Source: Minisyncoccota bacterium
GTDB lineage: Bacteria; Patescibacteriota; Minisyncoccia; Phycocordibacterales; Zambryskibacteraceae
Direction of reading: 5' to 3'
DNA: 64,000 nucleotides
Assembly (NCBI GenBank): GCA_036517475.1
Contig: DATDVZ010000010.1
Span: 15,338 to 79,337 of the forward strand
Under the pieces are notes generated by a model. The model searched no databases and had not been told where the DNA came from. It was given only the letters and a program-made list of their open reading frames with translations. Made by a program: the position numbers and the translations under genes. Shown here piece by piece: positions 2,611 to 26,513 of this stretch (within the stretch, counting starts at the first letter, position 1; every line of letters begins with the position of its first letter).

Positions 2611-3135
2611 TTAGCGTGATTTTGCGCGCCCAAAACCCATAAGATATTTCCTGGGATTTTCATCAAGATCAAGAAAGTCGTCCACTGTTTCAATAAGGCG
2701 GCTTGAAGTTGATTTTCCGAACCCAACAGCTTCAACTTGGCAGCCGCGTGTATTTTTCAAGTATTCAACTAAGGGAATATAATCTCCGTCTCCTGAAACT
2801 AGAATTATTGTATCCAAATTCTGTGCCATTTTAACTGCATCAATTGCAATCCCGACGTCCCAGTCAGCTTTTTTTGCACCTCCAAAAAATATCTGAAGGT
2901 TTTTAGTTTTTGTTTCAATCCCAGCTTTAGCAAGCGCCTCAAAAAAAGCCTTTTCTTCTCCAGTTTCTGTGGTTATCACGTAAGCAATTGCTCTAATAAG
3001 GGTTCTTCCGGCAAGGGCGTCCTTAACCACTTGGGCAAAATTAACTTTAGCTTTGTATAGATTTTTCGCGCTGTGATAGAGATTCTGCGTATCTATTAAA
3101 ATTCCAACTCTCTGTTCTTTATGTTTGATGGCCAT
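2611..3135 (-). CDS. NYN (LabA-like, PIN-like) domain protein
   Basis: 174 aa; RVGILIDTQNLYHS...ILVSGDGDYIPLV pattern typical of NYN/LabA. Confidence 0.65.
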   Translation of the reverse strand: MAIKHKEQRVGILIDTQNLYHSAKNLYKAKVNFAQVVKDALAGRTLIRAIAYVITTETGEEKAFFEALAKAGIETKTKNLQIFFGGAKKADWDVGIAIDAVKMAQNLDTIILVSGDGDYIPLVEYLKNTRGCQVEAVGFGKSTSSRLIETVDDFLDLDENPRKYLMGFGRAKSR

Positions 3136-3268
3136 GATTGATTTTTCTTATGAGCAAAGCGAATTAGAAATAATCATCACCCTGTTAAATCCTGCTTTGC
3201 AGGAATCCGCCATGGGCGGATTATTTAACAGGGTTAAGTAAATCATACTCGCTATACTCGTTGATTTT

Positions 3269-3541
3269 CTAAACTTTCTTCTTCAGTCCCATTTTCTTTA
3301 CTAGAGCTGAATATCTTTTGGGATTTTTCTTCTGCAGATAGCCCAAATGGGTCTGCCTCTGCGAAACCATACCAAGAAGACCTCTGCGGGAATGATTATC
3401 TTTTTTATTTTTTTTAAGATGCTTTGTTAATTCATCTATCCTTTTGGACAAAATAGAAATCTGGACCTCAGGGGACCCCGTGTCCTTGTCGTGAATTTGA
3501 ACTTCACCAATAATTCTGTGCTTTTTAGTCTTTGATATCAC
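3269..3541 (-). CDS. rpsO: 30S ribosomal protein S15
   Basis: 90 aa; [48 protein letters not shown] matches uS15. Confidence 0.9.
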
Positions 3542-13805: not shown

Positions 13806-13879
13806 TGGTGCGGCCAGCGAGAATCGAACTCGCGTCCCGTCCTTGGCAAGGACGTATTCTGCCACTAAACCATGGCCGC
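13806..13879 (-). tRNA. tRNA-Gly (GCC), CCA encoded
   Basis: GCGGCCA acceptor, anticodon stem CGTCC/GGACG, loop TTGCCAA, T-arm GCGAG-TTCGATT-CTCGC. Confidence 0.8.
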
Positions 13880-13926
13880 ATAAAAAAGAATTTTAAAATC
13901 CTATCAAATTAATAGAAATCAAACAA

Positions 13927-14466
13927 TTATTTGGCACCTAAGAAATTTATTATCTTTAATGCACATTTTTGTGGAGATAGGTGCGTATTGTTAATAATAA
14001 TTGGCGGATAAGATTTTAATCCTTGAAAAATTTTCGCTTTCAATTTTTCTTTAAACTTTTTGATTGTATTAGTTTTTGTTTTTTCTTTTCTTGAAGGCAT
14101 TAGAATTCTATTTTTATGCTCCTGCCAATCACACTCTATCCTGAAGAAAAAAATTTCGGCGTTCATTTTTTTTGCTAATTGTACAGATTTTTTCGCAATC
14201 TGCGTTGTTGGATGAAGTCTTATACTCAAAGTACAAATAATACCCCCTACTCCTGACTTAAGAAGCATTTTGAGTATTGCTAGATGCATTTTTCCATTTA
14301 GTAGGTGTGCATTTGGGGTTCCTTGGGGTATGAAATGACAGATCTCTCTGTAAGTAAGATGGTTATCCAACAATGCATATCCAGTCAACTTGCTGATAGC
14401 AAGACCGATCGTAGTTTTACCCACTCCAGGCAAACCAATCAAATAAATTACTCTTTTTCTTCTCAT
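13927..14466 (-). CDS. P-loop NMP/shikimate-kinase-like protein
   Basis: Walker A LIGLPGVGKTTIGLAISKLTGYALLDNHL (shikimate/gluconate kinase-like N-term). ATG at 14466. Confidence 0.5.
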   Translation of the reverse strand: MRRKRVIYLIGLPGVGKTTIGLAISKLTGYALLDNHLTYREICHFIPQGTPNAHLLNGKMHLAILKMLLKSGVGGIICTLSIRLHPTTQIAKKSVQLAKKMNAEIFFFRIECDWQEHKNRILMPSRKEKTKTNTIKKFKEKLKAKIFQGLKSYPPIIINNTHLSPQKCALKIINFLGAK

Positions 14467-14543
14467 TTTATTGCTTAATGCCAATATTTACTCAGGCAAT
14501 CCCAACCAAAGGATAATCAATTATATTTTAACCCTAATTATAT

Positions 14544-14614
14544 TCGGGCTGCCGGGAATTGAACCCGGGCCTTACCCACCCCATGGGCAAATACTACCGT
14601 TATACTACAGCCCG
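14544..14614 (-). tRNA. tRNA-Pro (GGG), no encoded CCA
   Basis: C1:G70 first pair, discriminator A, loop ATGGGGT, T-arm CCGGG-TTCAATT-CCCGG. Confidence 0.75.
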
Positions 14615-14617
14615 TTA

Positions 14618-15130
14618 TTATTCAAAAAAACCCTTCTCTTTGTACTCCTTTACCAATGCATCCGCAGTTTCTTTTTCAAGGTCTATGGGAATCTGGCTTG
14701 CCCACTCTTCAGCCTCTTCCAATTTATCATTTATCAAAAGATATAGAAGTTTTGTGATGGTATTTGGGTGATTCTCAGACTGGTACTCGAGTGCTTTTGC
14801 AGCATGAAACTGTGCTTTTTCTTTATCTTTATATCTCCATGTCGCACAGCTAATTGCATGATGATGCCAAAACCAGAGAATTTCTTGCCAATATTCTTTT
14901 TCTTCTTCCGTAAGAGTTGCTGAATCAACAGCTTCTAAAATTTCTTTTACTTTATTTACTACTAGATTAGGATTGTTATAATCCCAGGAACCATCCTTCA
15001 TGAGTTTCTGATCTTCTTCGCTGTATCTATGCGACAACCCAAGAGGTGTTTTTGCCGCCAGCAGAACATAAGCTGCCCTTAGTGGGCTTCTCTCTATTTC
15101 AAATACTTCATTACCGGTGGAACCTTCCAT
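14618..15130 (-). CDS. hypothetical protein (170 aa) wedged between two tRNA-Pro genes
   Basis: ATG 2 nt after the tRNA-Pro(UGG) 3' end; stop 3 nt before the tRNA-Pro(GGG) 5' end. Confidence 0.4.
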   Translation of the reverse strand: MEGSTGNEVFEIERSPLRAAYVLLAAKTPLGLSHRYSEEDQKLMKDGSWDYNNPNLVVNKVKEILEAVDSATLTEEEKEYWQEILWFWHHHAISCATWRYKDKEKAQFHAAKALEYQSENHPNTITKLLYLLINDKLEEAEEWASQIPIDLEKETADALVKEYKEKGFFE

Positions 15131-15132
15131 TG

Positions 15133-15203
15133 TCGGGGCGCCGAGAATCGAACTCGGCCCTCATGCTCCCAAAGCATGCATACTACCGATATACTACGCC
15201 CCG
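15133..15203 (-). tRNA. tRNA-Pro (UGG), no encoded CCA
   Basis: C1:G pair, anticodon stem CATGC/GCATG, loop TTTGGGA, T-arm CCGAG-TTCGATT-CTCGG. Confidence 0.8.
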
Positions 15204-15252
15204 AATTTCGGATTAATTTACACTGGTCGGCACCTCACTGGTATTCATTCGT

Positions 15253-15323
15253 TCGGGGTGCCGGGAATTGAACCCGATTCTCACGAACCCGAATCGTGTA
15301 TACTACCGGTGTACTACACCCCG
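15253..15323 (-). tRNA. tRNA-Pro (CGG), no encoded CCA
   Basis: C1:G pair, anticodon stem CACGA/TCGTG, loop TTCGGGT. Confidence 0.75.
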
Positions 15324-15370
15324 AAAATAACTTTCAAATCCTATCATAGAGACAGAAGAGCAGCGAATTT

Positions 15371-15754
15371 TTACAAAACAATATTTTCCATGTACTTCAC
15401 CTTAACTTTTTTATTCCCCTCATCAATCACCACTACCGCTACATCAAATTGCCAGTCAACCTCTAAATCTTTTTCAAGTAAATAAGTCTGAATTGTTCTT
15501 GATAACCTTTTCATTTTCCAGGGGTGAATGTTATCCTCCGGATTCCAAGAATCTAATGTTTCACGTGAAAACTCAGAAAAACTGACTGTTTTTACCTCAA
15601 CAAAATGAATTTTCCCGTCAATTTCTGCAATTATGTCAATTTCGCCCCATTTTCTTAGATAATTTCTTTCAATAATATTAGATTTTCTACTCTCAAGAAA
15701 TTTACAGGTAATTTCCTCACCAATATCACCAAATCTTCTTCTCTCGCTTTTCAT
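15371..15754 (-). CDS. YraN-family (UPF0102) endonuclease
   Basis: 127 aa; GDIGEEITCKFLESRKSNIIERNY...GEIDIIAEIDGKIHFVEVKT. Confidence 0.7.
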   Translation of the reverse strand: MKSERRRFGDIGEEITCKFLESRKSNIIERNYLRKWGEIDIIAEIDGKIHFVEVKTVSFSEFSRETLDSWNPEDNIHPWKMKRLSRTIQTYLLEKDLEVDWQFDVAVVVIDEGNKKVKVKYMENIVL

Positions 15755-15970
15755 AATTTAATTGATTTCACGTGAAACTAAAATATTAGTTACTAAGTAA
15801 CTTATTCAAAAATGTTACTTAGAAACACAATTAACTGATCTGTAATTAAATTCCTAATTAAAGGACGTCCTTTATACACATATCCACAGTTTTATCCCCA
15901 ATTCTTTGTCCTTTATATTTTAAATACAACCATACATATTTAAAGAATTGGGATTAAAATAAAGGACATT

Positions 15971-16041
15971 TGCGGGATGGGAGAATCGAACTCCCGACCA
16001 CAGTTTGGAAAACTGTTGTTTTGCCACTAAACTAATCCCGC
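15971..16041 (-). tRNA. tRNA-Gly (UCC), no encoded CCA
   Basis: GCGGGAT acceptor, anticodon stem ACAGT/ACTGT, loop TTTCCAA. Confidence 0.8.
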
Positions 16042-16043
16042 AT

Positions 16044-16115
16044 CGCACCCGTCAGGAATCGAACCCGAAATACGAAGTCCGAAGCTTCGCGTGATATCCG
16101 TTTCACTACGGGTGC
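16044..16115 (-). tRNA. tRNA-Arg (UCG), no encoded CCA
   Basis: GCACCCG acceptor, anticodon stem CGAAG/CTTCG, loop CTTCGGA. 2 nt from tRNA-Gly. Confidence 0.8.
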
Positions 16116-16157
16116 ACAGCTATATCATAACTTCAATTCTCCTAAATTTAAGGCTTA

Positions 16158-20279: not shown

Positions 20280-23200
20280 ATGACTAAAAAAAAATCTATA
20301 AAGAAACCAGAAAGGTTCTCTCGACTAAATTTATTTTTCCTATCAGCTTCTTTATTTATAATTCTAGGAATTATCCCTGGTGCAAAGACTGATGCCCAAG
20401 CAAATGTTCGATTTGATGTGGTTGCAACTTCAGTAAATGACCTTGTAACTGCAAAAAGTAGTAGTCCCGGAACATCTTTCACATCAAACGGGATTTCGGG
20501 AACAACAGGAAGATTAATCACACCAAATGGATCGATAACAATAAGCCTTACACCTGAACAAGCGCTTCCAAACGGTTGGGAATGGCACCTTCTATGGGGA
20601 GATGGTGGACCGATACTGGCAAATAGTTCAACACCTCTGCCTGCAAATGCGGCGACAACTCCTGGCTGGCCTGGATACCCCGCATATGTTGACGCAAGTA
20701 CCCCAGGAACTCCCGGAAGTCCTGGCTTTAGCCCGCAATGTTCTGACAACTCCGATAACGATAACAACAGTTTAACTGATTATCCAAATGACCCAGGCTG
20801 TTTAGACCCAGAAGACAATGATGAAAGCGGTGGGGCAGCAAGTTTTAAATGGTTTAAACCCAAAAATGTATATGCTCAAACTTCTCAAACATTTACATTC
20901 AATATTTCAGGTCTTGATACAAGCCGCTTTTATTCCTTCGCTGTAGAACTTTGCGAACCACCAGGAATAACAACTTGCGGACAGATAGCTTGGGTAAGAG
21001 TAGGCGGACTTGATTTGAGAGGAACTTTAAATCAAACTGACTGGCAAAATTTTAATTTTTCAAATTATTCAAACGGACCAATAAGCGTGTCAGGAGATAA
21101 CTTGTATTTAGGTTCAGTGTGGGGTTCACCTGATGTCAGTTCTTGTCAATTAGTAAGTCCTTATAATACCAACTGGACAGTAAACTCATTCGGGGGGCCT
21201 GATTTGCAAAGATCACTTGGTCTACCATACTTTCCATCAACTTCAGGAAGTACTTACACTGTCATATGCACTTTTACTGATGGTGATGATGTTGCAGATA
21301 GTTTAACTGCAACAGATGCTGCTACAGCAACGATAAATGTAAACCAGCTTTGTACTAACGCTCAACCTGTATCATCCGGCGGCAGTTGGACTCTTAATCC
21401 AAGCGGACAAACTGGAGTTACAAATGCAGTTGTTCCCGGGACATACAATCTCACAGTTAACACACTACCTTCAAATGCCCTGTCAGTTTCATCCGTTACA
21501 AGCTCTGATGGGGGAAACAGCTTAAACATAATTTCCGGCCAGACTAAATCTTTTACAATCAATTACATCTGTATTCCTCCTTCCAATAATCCACCGGATG
21601 CTTATGCCGGACCCGATAAATTCATAACTTTACCAACTTCTTCTTCAGCCCCCACAGGAACATCGGCAACAGATTCAGACGGAACTATTTCAAGTACAGT
21701 CTGGACTAAAATTTCCGGTCCGTCGGCAACAATTACAAACGGAAATACTTTAAATCCCACATTCTCAAACATGAGTAGTGTCGGAACATATGTCTTCCAA
21801 TTAACAGTAACTGATAATGGAAGCCCGGCGCTTACAGATACTGATGATATGCAAGTTGTTGTCTCTGCAGCCCCAAACATTCCTCCTTCCGTATATGCCG
21901 GTACTGATAAAACAATTACTTTGCCGACAACAACTTCTGCCCCGACCAGCGCTTCAGCAACAGATTCAGATGGAACAATTATAAGCCAAAATTGGACTAA
22001 GATTTCAGGTCCATCTGCAACAATTACAAATGGCTCAACTCTCAATCCGACTTTTTCCAATATGAGCAGCGTCGGAACTTATGTTTTCAGATTAACAGCA
22101 ACAGATGACGATGGGGCTTCAGCTTCTGACGATATGCAGGTTACAGTCAATGACGTTTCACCACCGCCACCACCTGCTGGATTAACGGTCACAACATCTT
22201 CAACATGCGGCGGTTATATTAATGTCAGCTGGAATTCTGCCTCTGGAGCAACTGGCTATAAAATTTACAGAGATGGCAGTGGGTCAGGAATTGATGTTGG
22301 AAATGTTTTGACTTACTCTGATGGACCTTTTGCACTCGGTTCAAGTCACTCCTATAGAGTCACGGCGTATAATTCTGGCGGAGAATCTTCTCAAAGCGGC
22401 TCGCAATCAGGCACAGCTTCGGGAACTTGCAACATCTCTCCCACAGCAAATGCCGGACCAGATAAACCAATACAACTTCCAACAACAACATCGGCTCCAA
22501 CCGGAACATCTGCAACAGATTCAGACGGAACTATTTCAAGCACGGTTTGGAGTAAAGACTCTGGGCCGTCGGCAACAATTACCAATGGAAACACTTTGAA
22601 TCCCACATTCTCCAACATGACTACAGCTGGAACATATGTTTTCCGCCTGACTGTTACGGATAATCAAGGTTCGCAAGGATTTGATACTATGCAGGTGGTG
22701 GTGTCTCCGGCGGGCAACATCTCTCCCACAGCAAATGCCGGACCAGATAAATTCATAACTTTACCAACTTCTTCTTCAGCCCCCACTGGCACTTCCGCTA
22801 CTGATTCTGATGGAACGATTACAAGCACCGTTTGGAGTAAAATTTCGGGACCCTCAGCTACTATTTCCAATGGTTCAAGTTTGAGCCCAACATTTTCAAA
22901 TATGAATACTGTTGGAACTTACGTTTTCAGATTAACAGCAACAGATGATGATGGGGCATCGGCAACTAACGATATGCAAGTAGTTGTTTCTGCTGCAGCA
23001 AATGCTCCGCCATCAGCAAATGCCGGACCAGATAAATCAATACAACTTCCGACAAGCACATCAGCACCAACCGGAACTTCTGCGACTGACTCTGACAGCA
23101 CAATTTCAAGTACAGTCTGGACTAAAATTTCCGGTCCGTCGGCAACAATTACAAACGGAAGTACTTTAAATCCCACATTCTCAAACATGAGTAGTGTCGG

Positions 23201-24407
23201 AACATATGTATTCCGATTAACAGTAACTGATAATGGAAGCCCAGCGCTTACAGACACTGACGATATGCAGGTTGTAGTTACTCAATCAACGATAACAGTA
23301 ACAGAAAATGGTGGAGCTGGTGGTACTTGGACAATTAATCCAGGGGGCTATACTGGGGGAAATAACACAGTTACTCCCGCCGCAGCTCCAGGGGGAACAA
23401 CCTACACATTAACAGTTAATAGCGTGCCGGCGGGAAAAACTGTTTCTTCAATTACCTCAACTGATGGTGGCAACTCCCTGAATTTAATTCCTGGACAGAC
23501 GAAAAATTTCACAATCAATTACGGCAGTAACGCCGCACCCACTGCAAATGCTGGACCAGATAAGCCAATTACCCTCCCGACAACAACTTCTGCCCCAACA
23601 GGAACATCTGCTACTGACTCTGATGGAACAATAGCAAGTACAATCTGGAGTTTTCAGGGGGGACCGGGGCCGACTCCGACAATTACAAATGGTTCTACTC
23701 TTAACCCATCATTTTCTGGTATGACTGTAGCAGGAACTTATACTTTCCGTCTGACAGCAACCGATAATCTGGGTGCCACAGGGTCGGATAACATGAATGT
23801 TGTAGTATCTTCTCCGCCTTTTAACTATTCACTTTCAAATAATGGCCCGATAACAATTGTTAAGGGTGGCTCACAGGGCCAAGTTACAATAACTAAAACT
23901 TTAAGTAGCGGCACTGGCCAGAACGTAACCTTAACTGCAACAGGACAACCCGCAGATGTGTCAGTAACATATCCAAATCAGGATTGTGCTCCGACTTGTT
24001 CTGGTTTTGTGACATTTCAAGTCCCCGCTGGTTCCTCTGATAGCCCCGGTCCTTACACCATTACAGTTACTGGACAACCCCTTGGAAAAACTACAATTTT
24101 CAATCTTACAATAAACAATCCAGCCAATGTAACAATCTCACCGTGTAACTCTTTGGGATGCCCGAGTGGAGGCGGACTTATTGGAGACCCAAACACATTT
24201 ACAGCAAATCCAGTGGGGTGCAGTTCTTATACATGGAGCGGAACTGATTTACCAACATCCCCGGCCCCAACAGGCAACCCCCTAAGTTGGACTTATCAGA
24301 CTACTGGCCTTAAAACCATAACAGTTGATACAGTATGTAGTGGAGTACCACGCCAAGGCCAGACAACATTACAGATAAATGTGAATCCATTGTTTAGAGA
24401 ATTTTGA
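20280..24407 (+). CDS. giant secreted surface protein with 7 PKD-type repeats and one FN3 domain
   Basis: 1375 aa; signal peptide; repeated AGPDKxIxLPTxxSAPTGTSATDSDGTIxSTVWxKISGPSATITNGxTLNPTFSNMxxxGTYVFRLTVTDxxG units; FN3 at about 22160-22430. Stop TGA is followed by a terminator. Confidence 0.75.
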   Translation: MTKKKSIKKPERFSRLNLFFLSASLFIILGIIPGAKTDAQANVRFDVVATSVNDLVTAKSSSPGTSFTSNGISGTTGRLITPNGSITISLTPEQALPNGWEWHLLWGDGGPILANSSTPLPANAATTPGWPGYPAYVDASTPGTPGSPGFSPQCSDNSDNDNNSLTDYPNDPGCLDPEDNDESGGAASFKWFKPKNVYAQTSQTFTFNISGLDTSRFYSFAVELCEPPGITTCGQIAWVRVGGLDLRGTLNQTDWQNFNFSNYSNGPISVSGDNLYLGSVWGSPDVSSCQLVSPYNTNWTVNSFGGPDLQRSLGLPYFPSTSGSTYTVICTFTDGDDVADSLTATDAATATINVNQLCTNAQPVSSGGSWTLNPSGQTGVTNAVVPGTYNLTVNTLPSNALSVSSVTSSDGGNSLNIISGQTKSFTINYICIPPSNNPPDAYAGPDKFITLPTSSSAPTGTSATDSDGTISSTVWTKISGPSATITNGNTLNPTFSNMSSVGTYVFQLTVTDNGSPALTDTDDMQVVVSAAPNIPPSVYAGTDKTITLPTTTSAPTSASATDSDGTIISQNWTKISGPSATITNGSTLNPTFSNMSSVGTYVFRLTATDDDGASASDDMQVTVNDVSPPPPPAGLTVTTSSTCGGYINVSWNSASGATGYKIYRDGSGSGIDVGNVLTYSDGPFALGSSHSYRVTAYNSGGESSQSGSQSGTASGTCNISPTANAGPDKPIQLPTTTSAPTGTSATDSDGTISSTVWSKDSGPSATITNGNTLNPTFSNMTTAGTYVFRLTVTDNQGSQGFDTMQVVVSPAGNISPTANAGPDKFITLPTSSSAPTGTSATDSDGTITSTVWSKISGPSATISNGSSLSPTFSNMNTVGTYVFRLTATDDDGASATNDMQVVVSAAANAPPSANAGPDKSIQLPTSTSAPTGTSATDSDSTISSTVWTKISGPSATITNGSTLNPTFSNMSSVGTYVFRLTVTDNGSPALTDTDDMQVVVTQSTITVTENGGAGGTWTINPGGYTGGNNTVTPAAAPGGTTYTLTVNSVPAGKTVSSITSTDGGNSLNLIPGQTKNFTINYGSNAAPTANAGPDKPITLPTTTSAPTGTSATDSDGTIASTIWSFQGGPGPTPTITNGSTLNPSFSGMTVAGTYTFRLTATDNLGATGSDNMNVVVSSPPFNYSLSNNGPITIVKGGSQGQVTITKTLSSGTGQNVTLTATGQPADVSVTYPNQDCAPTCSGFVTFQVPAGSSDSPGPYTITVTGQPLGKTTIFNLTINNPANVTISPCNSLGCPSGGGLIGDPNTFTANPVGCSSYTWSGTDLPTSPAPTGNPLSWTYQTTGLKTITVDTVCSGVPRQGQTTLQINVNPLFREF
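21590..23810 (+). repeat. intragenic tandem repeat region (about 280-bp PKD units). Units 21706-21870 and 23123-23285 are about 95% identical.
   Basis: seen directly at DNA and protein level. Confidence 0.8.
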
Positions 24408-24408
24408 G

Positions 24409-24445
24409 CGAGGACACATAATAACTTTCCATCAGGAAAGTTATT
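24409..24445 (+). terminator. perfect 13-bp stem hairpin (ataataactttcc atcag ggaaagttattat) after the adhesin gene
   Basis: seen directly. Confidence 0.6.
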
Positions 24446-24497
24446 ATGTTTGCGGTATTGTCCGAGCTCACCCTGTCAAATAAAATCAAATTCAAAT

Positions 24498-24761
24498 ATG
24501 GGTAGATATTATTATGTGTATGCCCTGCTATCAAAAAAAGATAAAAAATTCTATACTGGTTACACAAATAATTTGATTTTAAGATTTGAGCAACATCAAC
24601 TCGGTCGGGTTGAATCAACGAAATTACGTGGGCCATTTATTCCTGTATATTATGAGGCATGCTTAAGCAAGAAGGATGCTATTCATTGAGAAAGATACTT
24701 GATAACCACATACGGTAAAAGATATCTAAGAAACAGGCTCAAATCTTATTTGACAGGGTAA
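24498..24761 (+). pseudogene. GIY-YIG nuclease family gene with in-frame TGA at 24687-24689 (likely CGA to TGA); reading frame and conserved C-terminus continue to TAA at 24759
   Basis: MGRYYYVYALLSKKDKKFYTGYTNNLILRFEQH...YYEACLSKKDAIH-TGA-ERYLITTYGKRYLRNRLKSYLTG. The C-terminal ERY.KTT.GK..LR motif is typical of this family. Confidence 0.5.
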
Positions 24762-26513
24762 ATGCACATTGAAGAAAAACAACTGAAAGAATTTATTCTT
24801 GATTCGGGACTTGTGTCTCGAAGCCAGATTGATGCGGCGGAAAAAGAGGCAAAAGCAAAAAAACAAAGCGTGGGTAAAATTCTGGTAAGTCAGGGCAAAA
24901 TTACAGAGGACGACCTAAGAAGAATCCAGGCCTATATACTTGGAATCCCCTTCGTTGACCTCAAGACCACTCATACTGATTTTGAAACCCTCTCCCTTAT
25001 ACCCGAGCCGATTGCAAGAAGCCATAATATTATCGCTTTCCGCAGGAAAGATGATTCTCTAGAAGTTGCCATGCTTGAAATTGAGGATTTGGCAGCAATT
25101 GATTTTATCCGGAAAAAAACAGGACTCAAAATTCTGCCCCGTCTTACTGACACTGAGTCAATAAAAAGCGCGCTTCTCTCATATCAAAAATCCCTTAAAG
25201 CAGAGTTCGGCGATATTATTGAAAAAGAGGTTGGATCAATAAAAAATCTCAAGGTCGGAACAGATGAAGACTTAAATGAAGTTGATTTAAAAAAACTTGC
25301 CGAAGATATTCCTGTTGTCCGCATAGTAGATACGCTGCTCAAGCATGCCATCATTCAGGATGCTTCAGATATCCATATTGAACCTCAAGAAAAAGAGGTA
25401 TTGGTACGTTATCGTATTGACGGAATTTTGCGTGATGCTATGGTCTTGCCCAAAAATACAGCGGGAGCAATAACTGCAAGAATAAAAGTCCTTGCAAATT
25501 TAAAGCTAGATGAAAAAAGAATCCCGCAGGACGGCAGATTTAAAATAGATACCAGCAGTGAAAGAGTTTCGCTTCGAGTTTCTACTCTGCCTACATATTT
25601 CGGTGAAAAAACAGTCATGAGACTTCTGCGCGAGGGTTCTTCAGGATTTACTCTTGAAGCTTTGGGCTTCCATGGTGATGGTCTTGAGAAATTGCATAAG
25701 GCGGTCAAACTTGCAAATGGCATGATTTTAACAACTGGCCCGACAGGTTGCGGTAAAACTACAACTCTTTACACCCTCCTTGATATTTTAAACACTCCGG
25801 ACGTCAATATTTCCACAATTGAAGATCCTATTGAATATCAGATTCAAAGAATTAACCAGACACAAGTTAAACCTGAAATTGGTTTTACTTTTGCAACAGG
25901 ATTAAGAACCCTTGTCCGTCAGGATCCAGATATAATCATGGTTGGAGAAATCAGAGATACCGAGACGGCCGCCCTTGCGGTAAATGCGGCCCTGACCGGA
26001 CATTTGGTCTTATCGTCTCTGCATACCAACTCCGCCGCCGGAACAATAGCGCGTTTAATTGATATGAAAATTGAGCCGTTTCTCCTGACTTCCACGCTTT
26101 CAGTTATTGTTGCCCAACGTCTTATCAGGCGTCTTTCTGAAACTAAAGAAAAATATTTTATGTCAAAAGAGGAAATCGACTCCCTTTCCAAAATTGTTGA
26201 TCTTGAAAGAGTTATGCGTTTTCTGAAAGAAGAAAAGATAGTAACTAAAAACACCGAATGGCAGGAAATACCAGTTTACAAACCGATTCCTTCATCAGAA
26301 AGTGAGGATGGTTATAAATCTAGAATCGGCATCCACGAGGTTTTGGTCGTAAGCCAATCAGCGCGTGACCTTATTATGAAAGGAGTTACCACAGAAGAAT
26401 TAGAAGAGCAAGCAAAAAAAGAGGGGATGCTTACAATGCTTGAAGATGGAGTATTCAAAGTAGTTCAAGGTATTACAACAGTGGAGGAAGTTTTGAGGGT
26501 AGTTTCAGAATAG
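24762..26513 (+). CDS. pilB: type IV pilus assembly ATPase PilB (GspE family)
   Basis: 583 aa; N-terminal T2SE_N-like domain, Walker A TGPTGCGKTTTL, Asp/His boxes. Confidence 0.9.
   Translation: MHIEEKQLKEFILDSGLVSRSQIDAAEKEAKAKKQSVGKILVSQGKITEDDLRRIQAYILGIPFVDLKTTHTDFETLSLIPEPIARSHNIIAFRRKDDSLEVAMLEIEDLAAIDFIRKKTGLKILPRLTDTESIKSALLSYQKSLKAEFGDIIEKEVGSIKNLKVGTDEDLNEVDLKKLAEDIPVVRIVDTLLKHAIIQDASDIHIEPQEKEVLVRYRIDGILRDAMVLPKNTAGAITARIKVLANLKLDEKRIPQDGRFKIDTSSERVSLRVSTLPTYFGEKTVMRLLREGSSGFTLEALGFHGDGLEKLHKAVKLANGMILTTGPTGCGKTTTLYTLLDILNTPDVNISTIEDPIEYQIQRINQTQVKPEIGFTFATGLRTLVRQDPDIIMVGEIRDTETAALAVNAALTGHLVLSSLHTNSAAGTIARLIDMKIEPFLLTSTLSVIVAQRLIRRLSETKEKYFMSKEEIDSLSKIVDLERVMRFLKEEKIVTKNTEWQEIPVYKPIPSSESEDGYKSRIGIHEVLVVSQSARDLIMKGVTTEELEEQAKKEGMLTMLEDGVFKVVQGITTVEEVLRVVSE

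What the first reader, a model, noticed from the sequence alone, without database searches (positions are those of the whole stretch)
24498..24761. GIY-YIG nuclease gene with a single in-frame TGA and an intact, conserved C-terminus downstream
Translation reads ...YYEACLSKKDAIH-TGA-ERYLITTYGKRYLRNRLKSYLTG-TAA. The 23 codons after the TGA are in frame and match the conserved C-terminal ERY.KTT.GK..LR..L motif of this small GIY-YIG family. The TGA sits where an Arg is expected (CGA to TGA is a single transition). TGA is a genuine stop elsewhere in the window: the adhesin gene ends in TGA followed by a terminator, and the long conserved genes have no internal TGA. So an alternative genetic code is unlikely. 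It is therefore a very recent nonsense mutation, a sequencing error, or programmed readthrough. The gene sits between the adhesin terminator and pilB, whose ATG directly follows the TAA.
Basis: partly seen in the sequence, partly recalled or inferred. Interest (0 to 1): 0.55.

Follow-up and report, generated by a model that had tools for sequence, protein, structure and literature searches.

The report
Dead nuclease gene in mobile mini-element
The in-frame TGA is a real, fixed nonsense mutation that kills a small nuclease gene. The more interesting result is that the gene sits in a 290-base mobile insertion that folds into a perfect three-way junction, a type of element I could not find described anywhere.

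Summary
ORF 24498-24761 is a GIY-YIG gene with one in-frame TGA (24687-24689). It replaces an Arg that is invariant in the family and sits next to the catalytic Glu. The nearest homologue has CGA at that codon.

It is not a sequencing error. The identical 264 nt occur in 10 contigs from at least 8 assemblies. It is not an alternative genetic code, because TGA ends many genes here. Nothing supports programmed readthrough: no relative carries the TGA, there is no stimulatory structure, and the context is UGA-G. The best reading is a recent CGA>TGA nonsense mutation in a selfish gene.

The context is new. The gene is an Slx1-like nuclease threaded through a 290-nt insertion (24470-24759). The ends and interior of the insertion form three covarying stems that meet in a perfect three-way junction. 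This architecture is conserved in 12 family members from several phyla. Deleting the element in silico restores interrupted host genes in two other genomes. ORF-less versions of 52-137 nt exist, one of them in this window (3179-3234). In this window the element sits directly before the pilB start codon, and 80 related species lack it there. Part of the 'conserved C-terminus' is therefore conserved because it forms a nucleic-acid stem.

The parts
24470..24759 (+). Complete 290-nt insertion element, from ACCC... to ...GGGT. It folds into a perfect three-way junction and carries the GIY-YIG ORF.
   Evidence: The boundaries are inferred by analogy with L116 and L130, where deleting ACCC..GGGT restores the interrupted host genes. 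MFE is -75 kcal/mol against -55 +/- 4.9 for shuffles, z = -4.1. RNAalifold predicts the same junction on 11 members.
24498..24686 (+). The 63 sense codons of the GIY-YIG ORF before the stop. This is the product as annotated in public records (P0001).
24687..24689 (+). In-frame TGA replacing the invariant Arg (codon 64) that precedes the invariant, metal-binding Glu.
   Evidence: Relatives use CGA x3, CGC x2, CGT x1 and AGA x4 at this codon; the nearest relative uses CGA.
24690..24761 (+). 23 in-frame codons after the TGA, then TAA. The first 15 codons lie in the loop of stem C and carry the unique change K69I. The last 8 are the 3' arms of stems C and A.
24470..24483 (+). Stem A, 5' arm (ACCCTGTCAAATAA).
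   Evidence: It pairs perfectly with 24746-24759. It covaries across members: CCCTGTC/GACAGGG, CCCCGTG/CACGGGG, CCCTGTT/AACAGGG, GTGAGATA/TATCTCAC.
24746..24759 (+). Stem A, 3' arm (TTATTTGACAGGGT). It encodes ...YLTG plus the first base of the stop codon.
24481..24492 (+). Stem B, 5' arm, in the 5' leader (TAAAATCAAATT).
   Evidence: It pairs with 24570-24581. 7 of 9 pairs show compensatory changes. In the partner-swap test, arms paired with their own partner gave a mean complementary run of 12.45, against 6.07 with another member's partner, P < 5e-5.
24570..24581 (+). Stem B, 3' arm (codons 25-28, AATTTGATTTTA).
24580..24591 (+). Stem C, 5' arm (codons for LRFE, which include the catalytic Arg29).
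   Evidence: It pairs with 24737-24748. The stem is nearly invariant, even at synonymous sites.
24737..24748 (+). Stem C, 3' arm (codons for RLKSY).
24762..26513 (+). pilB (type IV pilus ATPase). Its ATG directly follows the TAA stop (24759-24761), whose first base is the last base of the element.
   Evidence: (Pfam MshEN, T2SSE).
24416..24449 (+). Perfect 15-bp hairpin after the adhesin gene, a probable terminator. It lies outside the element.
   Evidence: I2; not called by the consensus scan.
3179..3234 (.). ORF-less miniature of the same element. It has the same A stem (ACCCTGTTAAAT/ATTTAACAGGGT) enclosing two short hairpins, with no unpaired bases at the junction.
   Evidence: DNA fold -22.6 kcal/mol, z = -9.6.

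Best explanation
The TGA is a genuine nonsense mutation, fixed in this strain. It most likely arose by a CGA>TGA transition. It truncates an Slx1-like stand-alone GIY-YIG nuclease in the middle of helix alpha3, one residue before the catalytic metal-binding Glu, so the 63-aa product should be catalytically dead. No recoding takes place. The gene is not a host housekeeping gene. It is the cargo of a 290-nt mobile insertion (24470-24759) that landed between the pilB promoter region and the pilB ATG in this lineage only. Loss of the nuclease is the ordinary fate of a selfish nuclease gene once it is fixed at a site. The element has three stems. Stem A pairs the 5' end with the last codons. Stem B pairs the leader with codons 25-28. 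Stem C pairs codons 28-32 with codons 80-84. The three meet with no unpaired bases. I infer, but have not shown, that this junction is the cis-acting site used for mobility. It probably forms in single-stranded DNA and is recognised by the branched-DNA-specific nuclease that the element encodes. In the window copy all 32 stem pairs are still Watson-Crick. The copy could therefore still be mobilised in trans or act as a structured pilB leader, even though its own nuclease is broken.
For: The TGA is real: an identical 264 nt is present in 10 contigs from at least 8 assemblies. The code is standard. Arg is 100% invariant and is followed by an invariant Glu. The nearest homologue has CGA. In a high-confidence model (pLDDT 93) the codon lies in the middle of helix alpha3. 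Relaxed constraint is modest but visible. L49P and K69I are unique changes at columns that are at least 98% conserved. The C-terminal part ranks 9th lowest of 120 members. Many cluster representatives in the family are partial or frameshifted. The insertion is lineage-specific: none of 80 species with pilB at 58-80% identity has a GIY-YIG gene upstream of pilB. The element is discrete. Removing ACCC..GGGT restores a complete GIY-YIG domain in L116 (Pfam 9.4e-16). It also restores a tyrosine-recombinase motif, [17 protein letters not shown], in L130. In L125 the element sits between the tatC Shine-Dalgarno sequence and ATG, and in L126 between nusG and rplK. The three-way junction is supported by RNAalifold, which predicts it unaided. 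96.3% of cells are paired against 86.5% in shuffles, 12 pairs have double changes, 0 of 500 shuffles reach this, and slid controls give about 50%. A partner-swap test also supports it. Miniatures with the same A stem and junction exist. The fold is closest to UPF0213 (1ZG2) and to Slx1 bound to branched DNA (6SEH, 7CQ2), not to I-TevI.
Against: All contigs that carry the TGA are at least 99.95% identical. There is therefore no evolutionary depth to show how long the stop has persisted, or whether the downstream codons are drifting. The relaxed-constraint signals are weak: three hits, none in a stem, which has P about 0.4 by chance. Low-level natural UGA readthrough cannot be excluded. The mobility mechanism is wholly inferred. 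No target-site duplication was seen, no second full copy lies in the 64-kb window, and a hydrolytic GIY-YIG nuclease alone cannot carry out strand transfer. Whether the junction acts in DNA or in RNA is unresolved.
Confidence: 0.8

Rival explanations
1. Sequencing or assembly error: the true base at 24687 is C.
For: Only that a single base separates TGA from CGA. Other single-base G>T differences between assemblies of this strain do exist.
Against: The same TGA is in all 10 fetched contigs (18 on record) from at least 8 assemblies. These include four distinct BioSamples and two JGI projects, built with different assemblers.
Confidence: 0.02
2. Programmed or tolerated UGA readthrough (insertion of Trp, Arg or Sec) yields enough full-length nuclease for the element to remain autonomous.
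For: The downstream frame is open and still family-like. All stems are intact. Mobile-element enzymes often need only trace expression. A tRNA-Arg(UCG), which is near-cognate to UGA at the first codon position, is in the window.
Against: No other family member has TGA here. Of the 120 best hits, 119 are full length. A metagenome-wide pattern search for DAxH-TGA-E[KR]YL returned only 15 chance hits in unrelated sequence. No structure follows the stop and there is no Rfam hit. From general knowledge, UGA-G is a comparatively efficient termination context in bacteria, and the usual readthrough residue, Trp, would replace an invariant Arg.
Confidence: 0.05
3. Alternative genetic code in which TGA is a sense codon (code 4 or 25).
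For: Some candidate-phyla-radiation lineages reassign TGA (general knowledge).
Against: TGA terminates 18 of 72 ORFs of at least 100 aa, including four ATGA overlaps. Long ORFs of up to 1375 aa contain no in-frame TGA. The residue expected at this codon is Arg, not Gly or Trp.
Confidence: 0.01
4. The stop was selected rather than neutral. Inactivating a potentially toxic nuclease domesticated the element, which is now kept as a structured leader for pilB. Alternatively, the 63-aa stub has a new binding function.
For: All 32 stem pairs are Watson-Crick, while the protein carries three damaging changes. The element lies exactly between the promoter region and the pilB ATG.
Against: Three hits outside the stems is what chance predicts, since the stems make up about 26% of the element. 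No diverged relative is available to show retention. The stub lacks half of the fold.
Confidence: 0.1
5. The three-way junction works in the mRNA, not in DNA. It would fold the insertion into a compact domain that occludes the nuclease start codon, which lies 0-15 nt from stem B. It would also bring host sequences on both sides together, limiting polar effects on the host operon.
For: All 12 elements are co-oriented with their neighbouring genes. The start codon abuts stem B. Host start codons lie 0-3 nt after the element's stop in 3 of 12 cases. The RNA fold has z = -4.1.
Against: ORF-less miniatures keep the junction although there is nothing to translate. The stems show no excess of G.U wobble over A.C mismatches (5 against 5 in 352 cells), which is unusual for a selected RNA helix. 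The encoded protein resembles a branched-DNA nuclease.
Confidence: 0.3

Closest known systems
Prokaryotic Slx1-like / UPF0213 (YhbQ, BH0048) stand-alone GIY-YIG domains
   Same: Both are minimal single-domain GIY-YIG proteins of about 85-100 aa. The best sequence hit in the PDB is 1ZG2 (E = 1e-5). The best fold hits are 1ZG2 and then Slx1 (TM 0.62-0.72). The catalytic Arg, His and Glu are present.
   Different: The literature treats these proteins as vertically inherited repair proteins (PMC1564403). This subfamily instead sits in a discrete insertion with covarying terminal and internal stems, appears at unrelated loci, and is 65-75% identical across phyla.
Degenerating homing-endonuclease genes (free-standing GIY-YIG HEGs such as the I-TevI/Seg type)
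   Same: Both are selfish GIY-YIG nuclease genes wedged between or inside host genes, and both decay by point mutation once fixed.
   Different: There is no DNA-binding domain or NUMOD. TIGR01453 scores only 18.9 bits against a cut-off of 56. The I-TevI fold match is weak (E = 0.6). None were found in viral contigs, phage-type contexts or plasmids. The element inserts at unrelated sites rather than homing to one allele.
REP/RAYT and IS200/IS605-type structured elements; bacterial MITEs
   Same: Both have autonomous copies plus short ORF-less derivatives that share the end structures. Both fold strongly as single strands, show no target-site duplication, and lie in intergenic positions within operons.
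   Different: The enzyme is an Slx1-like GIY-YIG hydrolase, not a HUH/Y1 or DDE transposase. The cis structure is a perfect three-way junction through which the ORF itself is threaded, not subterminal hairpins or simple inverted repeats.
Programmed stop-codon readthrough / selenocysteine recoding
   Same: There is a single in-frame UGA with an open, conserved frame downstream.
   Different: The stop is not conserved in relatives. There is no SECIS-like or stimulatory structure and no Sec tRNA in the window. The expected residue is Arg.
Rickettsia palindromic elements (RPEs)
   Same: Both are small palindromic insertions found inside protein-coding genes as well as between them (L116, L130).
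   Different: RPEs are translated in frame as part of the host protein and encode no enzyme. Here the insertions interrupt the host ORF and carry their own nuclease gene.

Membership tests
GIY-YIG nuclease superfamily (PF01541) | Significant match to the domain profile, with the GIY and YIG beta-hairpin motifs | tested here: met
   56.5 bits, E = 3.6e-15, profile positions 1-76 of 78 on the read-through translation. YVY and YTG are present.
GIY-YIG nuclease superfamily (PF01541) | Catalytic Arg in helix 1 and a metal-binding Glu present in the expressed protein | tested here: not met
   R29 is encoded before the stop. The invariant Glu (codon 65) lies immediately after the TGA, so the 63-aa product lacks it. 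The DNA still encodes it.
Prokaryotic Slx1-like / UPF0213 branch | Minimal stand-alone domain, closest in sequence and fold to 1ZG2/1YWL and Slx1 rather than to UvrC or I-TevI | tested here: met
   phmmer against 1ZG2 gives E = 1e-5. Foldseek ranks 1ZG2 and then Slx1 entries at ranks 1-10, with I-TevI at E = 0.6.
GIY-YIG homing endonucleases (I-TevI type) | C-terminal DNA-binding module, or membership of the group I intron endonuclease model | tested here: not met
   The protein is 87 aa with no extra domain. TIGR01453 scores 18.9 bits against a cut-off of 56.05.
Programmed UGA readthrough / Sec recoding | Stop codon conserved at the same site in related genes | tested here: not met
   Of the 120 best hits, 119 are full length with Arg. 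The metagenome pattern scan found no family member with TGA.
Programmed UGA readthrough / Sec recoding | Stimulatory RNA structure or SECIS directly 3' of the stop | tested here: not met
   The 110 nt from 24681 fold no better than shuffles (z = 0.37). There is no Rfam match.
Programmed UGA readthrough / Sec recoding | Sec machinery (selA, selB, selC) or a suppressor tRNA in the genome | not testable with these tools
   Only 64 kb is available. None of the six tRNAs in the window reads UGA.
Alternative code with TGA as sense (tables 4 and 25) | In-frame TGA scattered through conserved genes, and TGA not used as a terminator | tested here: not met
   18 of 72 ORFs of at least 100 aa end in TGA, there are four ATGA overlaps, and long ORFs are uninterrupted.
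Transposable element (IS / MITE sense) | Discrete unit whose precise removal restores the target sequence | tested here: met
   L116: a complete GIY-YIG host domain is restored. L130: the recombinase motif is restored.
Transposable element (IS / MITE sense) | Terminal inverted repeats | tested here: met
   ACCCYGTNAAATAA and TTATTTNACRGGGT in 11 of 12 members; the L107 3' arm is degenerate.
Transposable element (IS / MITE sense) | Target-site duplication | tested here: not met
   No direct repeat flanks any copy. The flanks tend to be TTY | element | RAA.
Transposable element (IS / MITE sense) | Transposase of a recognised class (DDE, HUH, Ser, Tyr) | tested here: not met
   The only ORF is the GIY-YIG domain.
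Transposable element (IS / MITE sense) | Several copies per genome, and filled/empty polymorphism | tested here: inconclusive
   There is one full copy and one miniature in 64 kb, and L129 holds both kinds. No filled/empty pair from one species was available.

The most novel reading that the evidence does not exclude
A previously undescribed class of prokaryotic mobile element. It is about 290 nt long, and its only gene, an Slx1-like branched-DNA nuclease, is threaded through a perfect DNA three-way junction that serves as the nuclease's own recognition and cleavage substrate. The element has 52-137-nt ORF-less derivatives that keep the junction. It inserts at TTY|RAA sites between or inside genes, across candidate-phyla-radiation bacteria, Bacteroidota, Verrucomicrobiota and others. 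In this reading the C-terminal peptide RLKSYLTG is dictated by base-pairing rather than by protein function.
Probability: 0.35. Interest if true: 0.8.

Novelty: new variant of a known kind. Interest (0 to 1): 0.5.

Why it matters
Taken alone, the TGA is an ordinary pseudogenising mutation and needs no special mechanism.

The context matters for three reasons. First, it suggests that at least one large subfamily of prokaryotic Slx1-like GIY-YIG proteins is the cargo of a tiny mobile element. That subfamily comprises 1297 clusters (at 50% identity) with E <= 1e-10. These proteins are routinely annotated as 'excinuclease ABC subunit C' or as repair nucleases.

Second, the element is an extreme case of overlapping codes. 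Catalytic and C-terminal codons double as arms of a covarying three-way junction.

Third, if the junction is the nuclease's substrate, this would be a structure-guided mobility mechanism using an enzyme class not known to drive transposition in prokaryotes. That is directly testable with synthetic junctions.

For annotation, the elements split host genes (a recombinase and a second GIY-YIG gene) and sit between ribosome-binding sites and start codons. Recognising them would repair gene models.

Tried and rejected
- Viral contigs searched with the family alignment gave no relatives. A plasmid tblastn gave no match. The family is therefore not phage- or plasmid-borne in those collections.
- Rfam at gathering and at permissive E-value thresholds gave only tRNAs or noise, both over the element and over the miniature.
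- The metagenome scan for the TGA-bearing motif returned 15 hits, all chance matches in unrelated sequence. The window's own contigs were not in that collection, so this scan had no positive control.
- I considered a Sec/SECIS reading and rejected it: there is no structure, and Arg is expected.
- I tried to use variation among ten near-identical Moranbacteria loci (L108-L117) to test selection on the split host gene. There were too few differences.
- I started a covariance model for the miniatures but dropped it. MAFFT placed the hairpins in inconsistent registers with only three sequences. A regex and fold scan of all 1.15 Mb held was used instead.
- Eight literature searches found no description of these elements.
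- I looked for target-site duplications and found none.
- The sigma-70 scan gives only weak promoter candidates near the element, not above the shuffle expectation by much.

Full report
OBSERVATION. An ATG lies at 24498, followed by 63 sense codons, TGA at 24687-24689, 23 further in-frame codons, and TAA at 24759-24761. The pilB ATG is at 24762. The read-through translation matches Pfam GIY-YIG at 3.6e-15. A search of 5.8 billion protein clusters found 584 relatives. The 119 best, apart from the window's own product, are 84-93 aa and end in ...RLKSYLTG. They have Arg at the TGA position in every case, followed by an invariant Glu. A wider set down to 49% identity keeps both residues invariant.

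IS THE TGA REAL? The 63-aa truncated product (P0001) is on record from 18 contigs. The 10 that I fetched come from at least 8 assemblies. These include four Rifle BioSamples, two JGI metagenomes and independent re-assemblies. All contain the identical 264 nt, including the TGA. A sequencing error is therefore excluded for practical purposes. These contigs are at least 99.95% identical over up to 6.2 kb, so they represent one strain and give no evolutionary depth.

GENETIC CODE AND RECODING. TGA terminates 18 of 72 ORFs of at least 100 aa, including four ATGA stop/start overlaps. ORFs of up to 1375 aa have no internal TGA. The six tRNAs in the window include none that reads UGA. The 110 nt after the stop fold no better than shuffles (z = 0.37), and Rfam finds nothing. 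A metagenome-wide scan for the family motif D-A-x-H-TGA-E-[KR]-Y-L gave only 15 chance matches in unrelated sequence. That scan had no positive control. From general knowledge, UGA-G is a fairly efficient terminator in bacteria, and natural readthrough mostly inserts Trp, which would replace an invariant Arg. I put programmed readthrough at about 5%.

ORIGIN OF THE STOP. Codon 64 in ten relatives with DNA in hand is CGA (3), CGC (2), CGT (1) or AGA (4). The closest relative, L107 at 73% identity, has CAT CGA GAA where the window has CAT TGA GAA. A single C>T transition is the simplest path. An AlphaFold model of a typical member (pLDDT 93) puts this residue in the middle of helix alpha3. The stub therefore loses the catalytic Glu and three helices. 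Signs of relaxed constraint are modest. L49P and K69I are unique changes at columns that are at least 98% conserved. The post-stop segment scores 2.30 bits per residue, 9th lowest of 120, and the pre-stop segment scores 2.75, 19th lowest. Many 50%-cluster representatives of the family are partial or frameshifted, so decay is common in this family.

WHAT THE GENE IS. None of 80 species whose pilB is 58-80% identical has a GIY-YIG gene upstream of pilB. The closest, L011, keeps the adhesin-pilB order but has a different 202-aa ORF between the two genes. In relatives, pilB is preceded by an extended -10 box a short distance before the ATG. Family members sit at unrelated places and are always co-oriented with their neighbours. 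Examples are between nusG and rplK, between the tatC Shine-Dalgarno sequence and ATG, before lexA, and between glycosyltransferase genes. They are 65-75% identical across candidate-phyla-radiation bacteria, Bacteroidota, Verrucomicrobiota and KSB1. This is the behaviour of a mobile gene.

A CONSERVED THREE-WAY JUNCTION. Aligning the DNA of the nearest relatives showed that similarity extends about 28 nt upstream of the ATG. Inverted-repeat analysis then revealed three pairings in every member.
- Stem A pairs the 5' end ACCCYGTNAAATAA with the last codons TTATTTNACRGGGT (window 24470-24483 with 24746-24759).
- Stem B pairs the leader just after the 5' arm of A with codons 25-28 (24481-24492 with 24570-24581).
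- Stem C pairs codons 28-32 with codons 80-84 (24580-24591 with 24737-24748).
The arms abut one another (5' arm of A with 5' arm of B, 3' arm of B with 5' arm of C, 3' arm of C with 3' arm of A), so the three stems meet with no unpaired base.

RNAalifold, run on an 11-sequence MAFFT alignment with no guidance, predicts exactly this junction. 13 of its 39 pairs show compensatory double changes. Counting pairs on the named structure gives 96.3% paired cells against 86.5% in column shuffles. 12 pairs have double changes, 0 of 500 shuffles reach this, and paired cells collapse to about 50% when partners are slid by one column. I also ran an alignment-free partner-swap test. For stem B, arms paired with their own partner gave a mean complementary run of 12.45, against 6.07 with another member's partner (P < 5e-5). 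For stem A the values were 10.55 against 7.45 (P = 0.0014). Stem C barely varies, so the test says nothing about it. A 49%-identical, GC-rich member (L130) keeps stem A with new compensated bases, GTGAGATA/TATCTCAC. The window copy folds into the junction at -75 kcal/mol (z = -4.1), and all 32 consensus pairs are Watson-Crick.

THE ELEMENT IS A DISCRETE INSERTION. In L108-L117 the unit interrupts a second, UPF0213-type GIY-YIG gene after ...LYTGI. Deleting ACCC..GGGT gives an 89-90-aa protein with a complete GIY-YIG domain across the join (9.4e-16). In L130 it interrupts a tyrosine recombinase. Deleting 280 nt restores ...[31 protein letters not shown].... The element thus ends at the T of GGGT, and the stop codon is completed by the flank (T+AA or T+GA). 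Where the flank differs, the ORF runs on, which explains the C-terminal extensions seen in some members (L126, L127). The flanks tend to be TTY | element | RAA, and no target-site duplication is seen.

MINIATURES. A scan of the 1.15 Mb held found ORF-less units with the same A stem enclosing two short hairpins, again with no unpaired junction bases. They are at window 3179-3234, L079 4243-4294, L129 639-689 (L129 also holds a full copy) and, as a 137-nt form, L033 4444-4580. They fold as DNA with z = -5.8 to -9.8, and the hairpin sequences differ among them. The junction is therefore a cis feature independent of the ORF.

DNA OR RNA? The stems contain 334 Watson-Crick pairs, 5 G.T, 5 A.C and 8 other pairs. 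There is no wobble excess, which does not look like a selected sense-strand RNA helix, although the sample is small. The encoded protein's closest structures are UPF0213 BH0048 and Slx1 in complex with branched DNA. I-TevI is far behind. I therefore favour a junction formed in single-stranded DNA and recognised by the element's own branched-DNA nuclease. This step is inference. An mRNA role is a live rival at about 0.3. It would involve occlusion of the start codon by stem B and insulation of host operons. It is supported by universal co-orientation and by host ATGs lying 0-3 nt after the element in three cases.

CONSEQUENCE FOR THE ORIGINAL ARGUMENT. The last 8 codons (RLKSYLTG) are the 3' arms of stems C and A. 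The C arm is the reverse complement of the codons for LRFE, which include the catalytic Arg. Their conservation after the TGA reflects, at least in part, base-pairing. It is not evidence that they are still translated. Only the 15 loop codons after the stop bear on that question, and they carry one unique radical change (K69I).

KNOWN OR NEW? Rfam 15 has no model. Eight full-text searches found no description. The phylogenomic survey of the superfamily treats prokaryotic Slx1-like proteins as vertically inherited repair enzymes. It places the selfish GIY-YIG nucleases in the other (UvrC+) lineage. It does note one 'very recent' insertion of such a domain into an HsdR gene (PMC1564403). My literature coverage is incomplete, so I rate the element a new variant of a known kind, namely small structured mobile elements with miniature derivatives. 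I give 0.35 to the stronger reading that it is a new class of nuclease-driven, junction-guided element.

VERDICT. The finding as stated is an ordinary, real nonsense mutation in a selfish gene. The sequencing-error reading is excluded and the recoding reading is unsupported. The locus is worth following up because of the element that carries the gene.

Noticed in passing
window 3179-3234: A 56-nt ORF-less three-way-junction element lies between rpsO (3269-3541, minus strand) and the next minus-strand gene (2611-3135). It has the same A stem as the GIY-YIG element and two GC-rich hairpins.
   Followed up: yes
window 25833 (pilB codon 358); locus L003 position 4336: One assembly of the same strain (ERZ4903055) has G>T, turning pilB Glu358 (GAA) into TAA and splitting pilB into two called genes. 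Another assembly (L007) has a G>T Gly1197Cys change in the adhesin at 23868. These are either real minority alleles or G>T artefacts.
   Followed up: partly
window 20280-24407: This is a 1375-aa surface protein with many PKD/K319L-like repeats. Internal DNA repeats are 72-91% identical (for example 21645-21859 against 23061-23275), which makes it prone to assembly collapse or repeat-number variation.
   Followed up: no
window 13806-16116, minus strand: A cluster of six tRNA genes: Gly-GCC, Pro-GGG, Pro-UGG, Pro-CGG, Gly-UCC and Arg-UCG. All three tRNA-Pro isoacceptors lie within 800 nt.
   Followed up: no
L012, L015, L021, L022, L024, L025, L028 (60 nt before pilB): In related species pilB is preceded by a strong extended -10 box (TGnTATAAT) only about 8-25 nt before the ATG. 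This suggests very short leaders or leaderless pilB mRNAs in this clade.
   Followed up: partly
L116 1408-1968; L130 about 800-1400: The element interrupts protein-coding genes: a second, UPF0213-type GIY-YIG gene and a tyrosine recombinase. Public gene calls split or truncate these hosts.
   Followed up: yes
L107 123-192: An ORF-less pair of A arms (70 nt, no clear inner hairpins) lies directly upstream of a full copy. The full copy's own 3' arm is degenerate and its ORF is extended to 92 aa. The elements can therefore sit in tandem and decay at their ends.
   Followed up: partly
L118 1318-1491; L132 588-852; L133 508-771: Small '23S rRNA intervening sequence protein' (PF05635) genes lie next to the GIY-YIG element in three loci representing two unrelated contexts (L132 and L133 carry the same element). 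In L118 the PF05635 ORF ends at the TAG inside the element's 5' arm. This may be a second kind of small wedged-in gene.
   Followed up: no
L122 46-351 and 1501-1755: Two GIY-YIG genes of different subfamilies are interleaved with glycosyltransferase genes in a Verrucomicrobiota (Udaeobacter) contig, with 2-18-nt spacers. The upstream glycosyltransferase gene ends at the TAA inside the element's 5' arm.
   Followed up: partly
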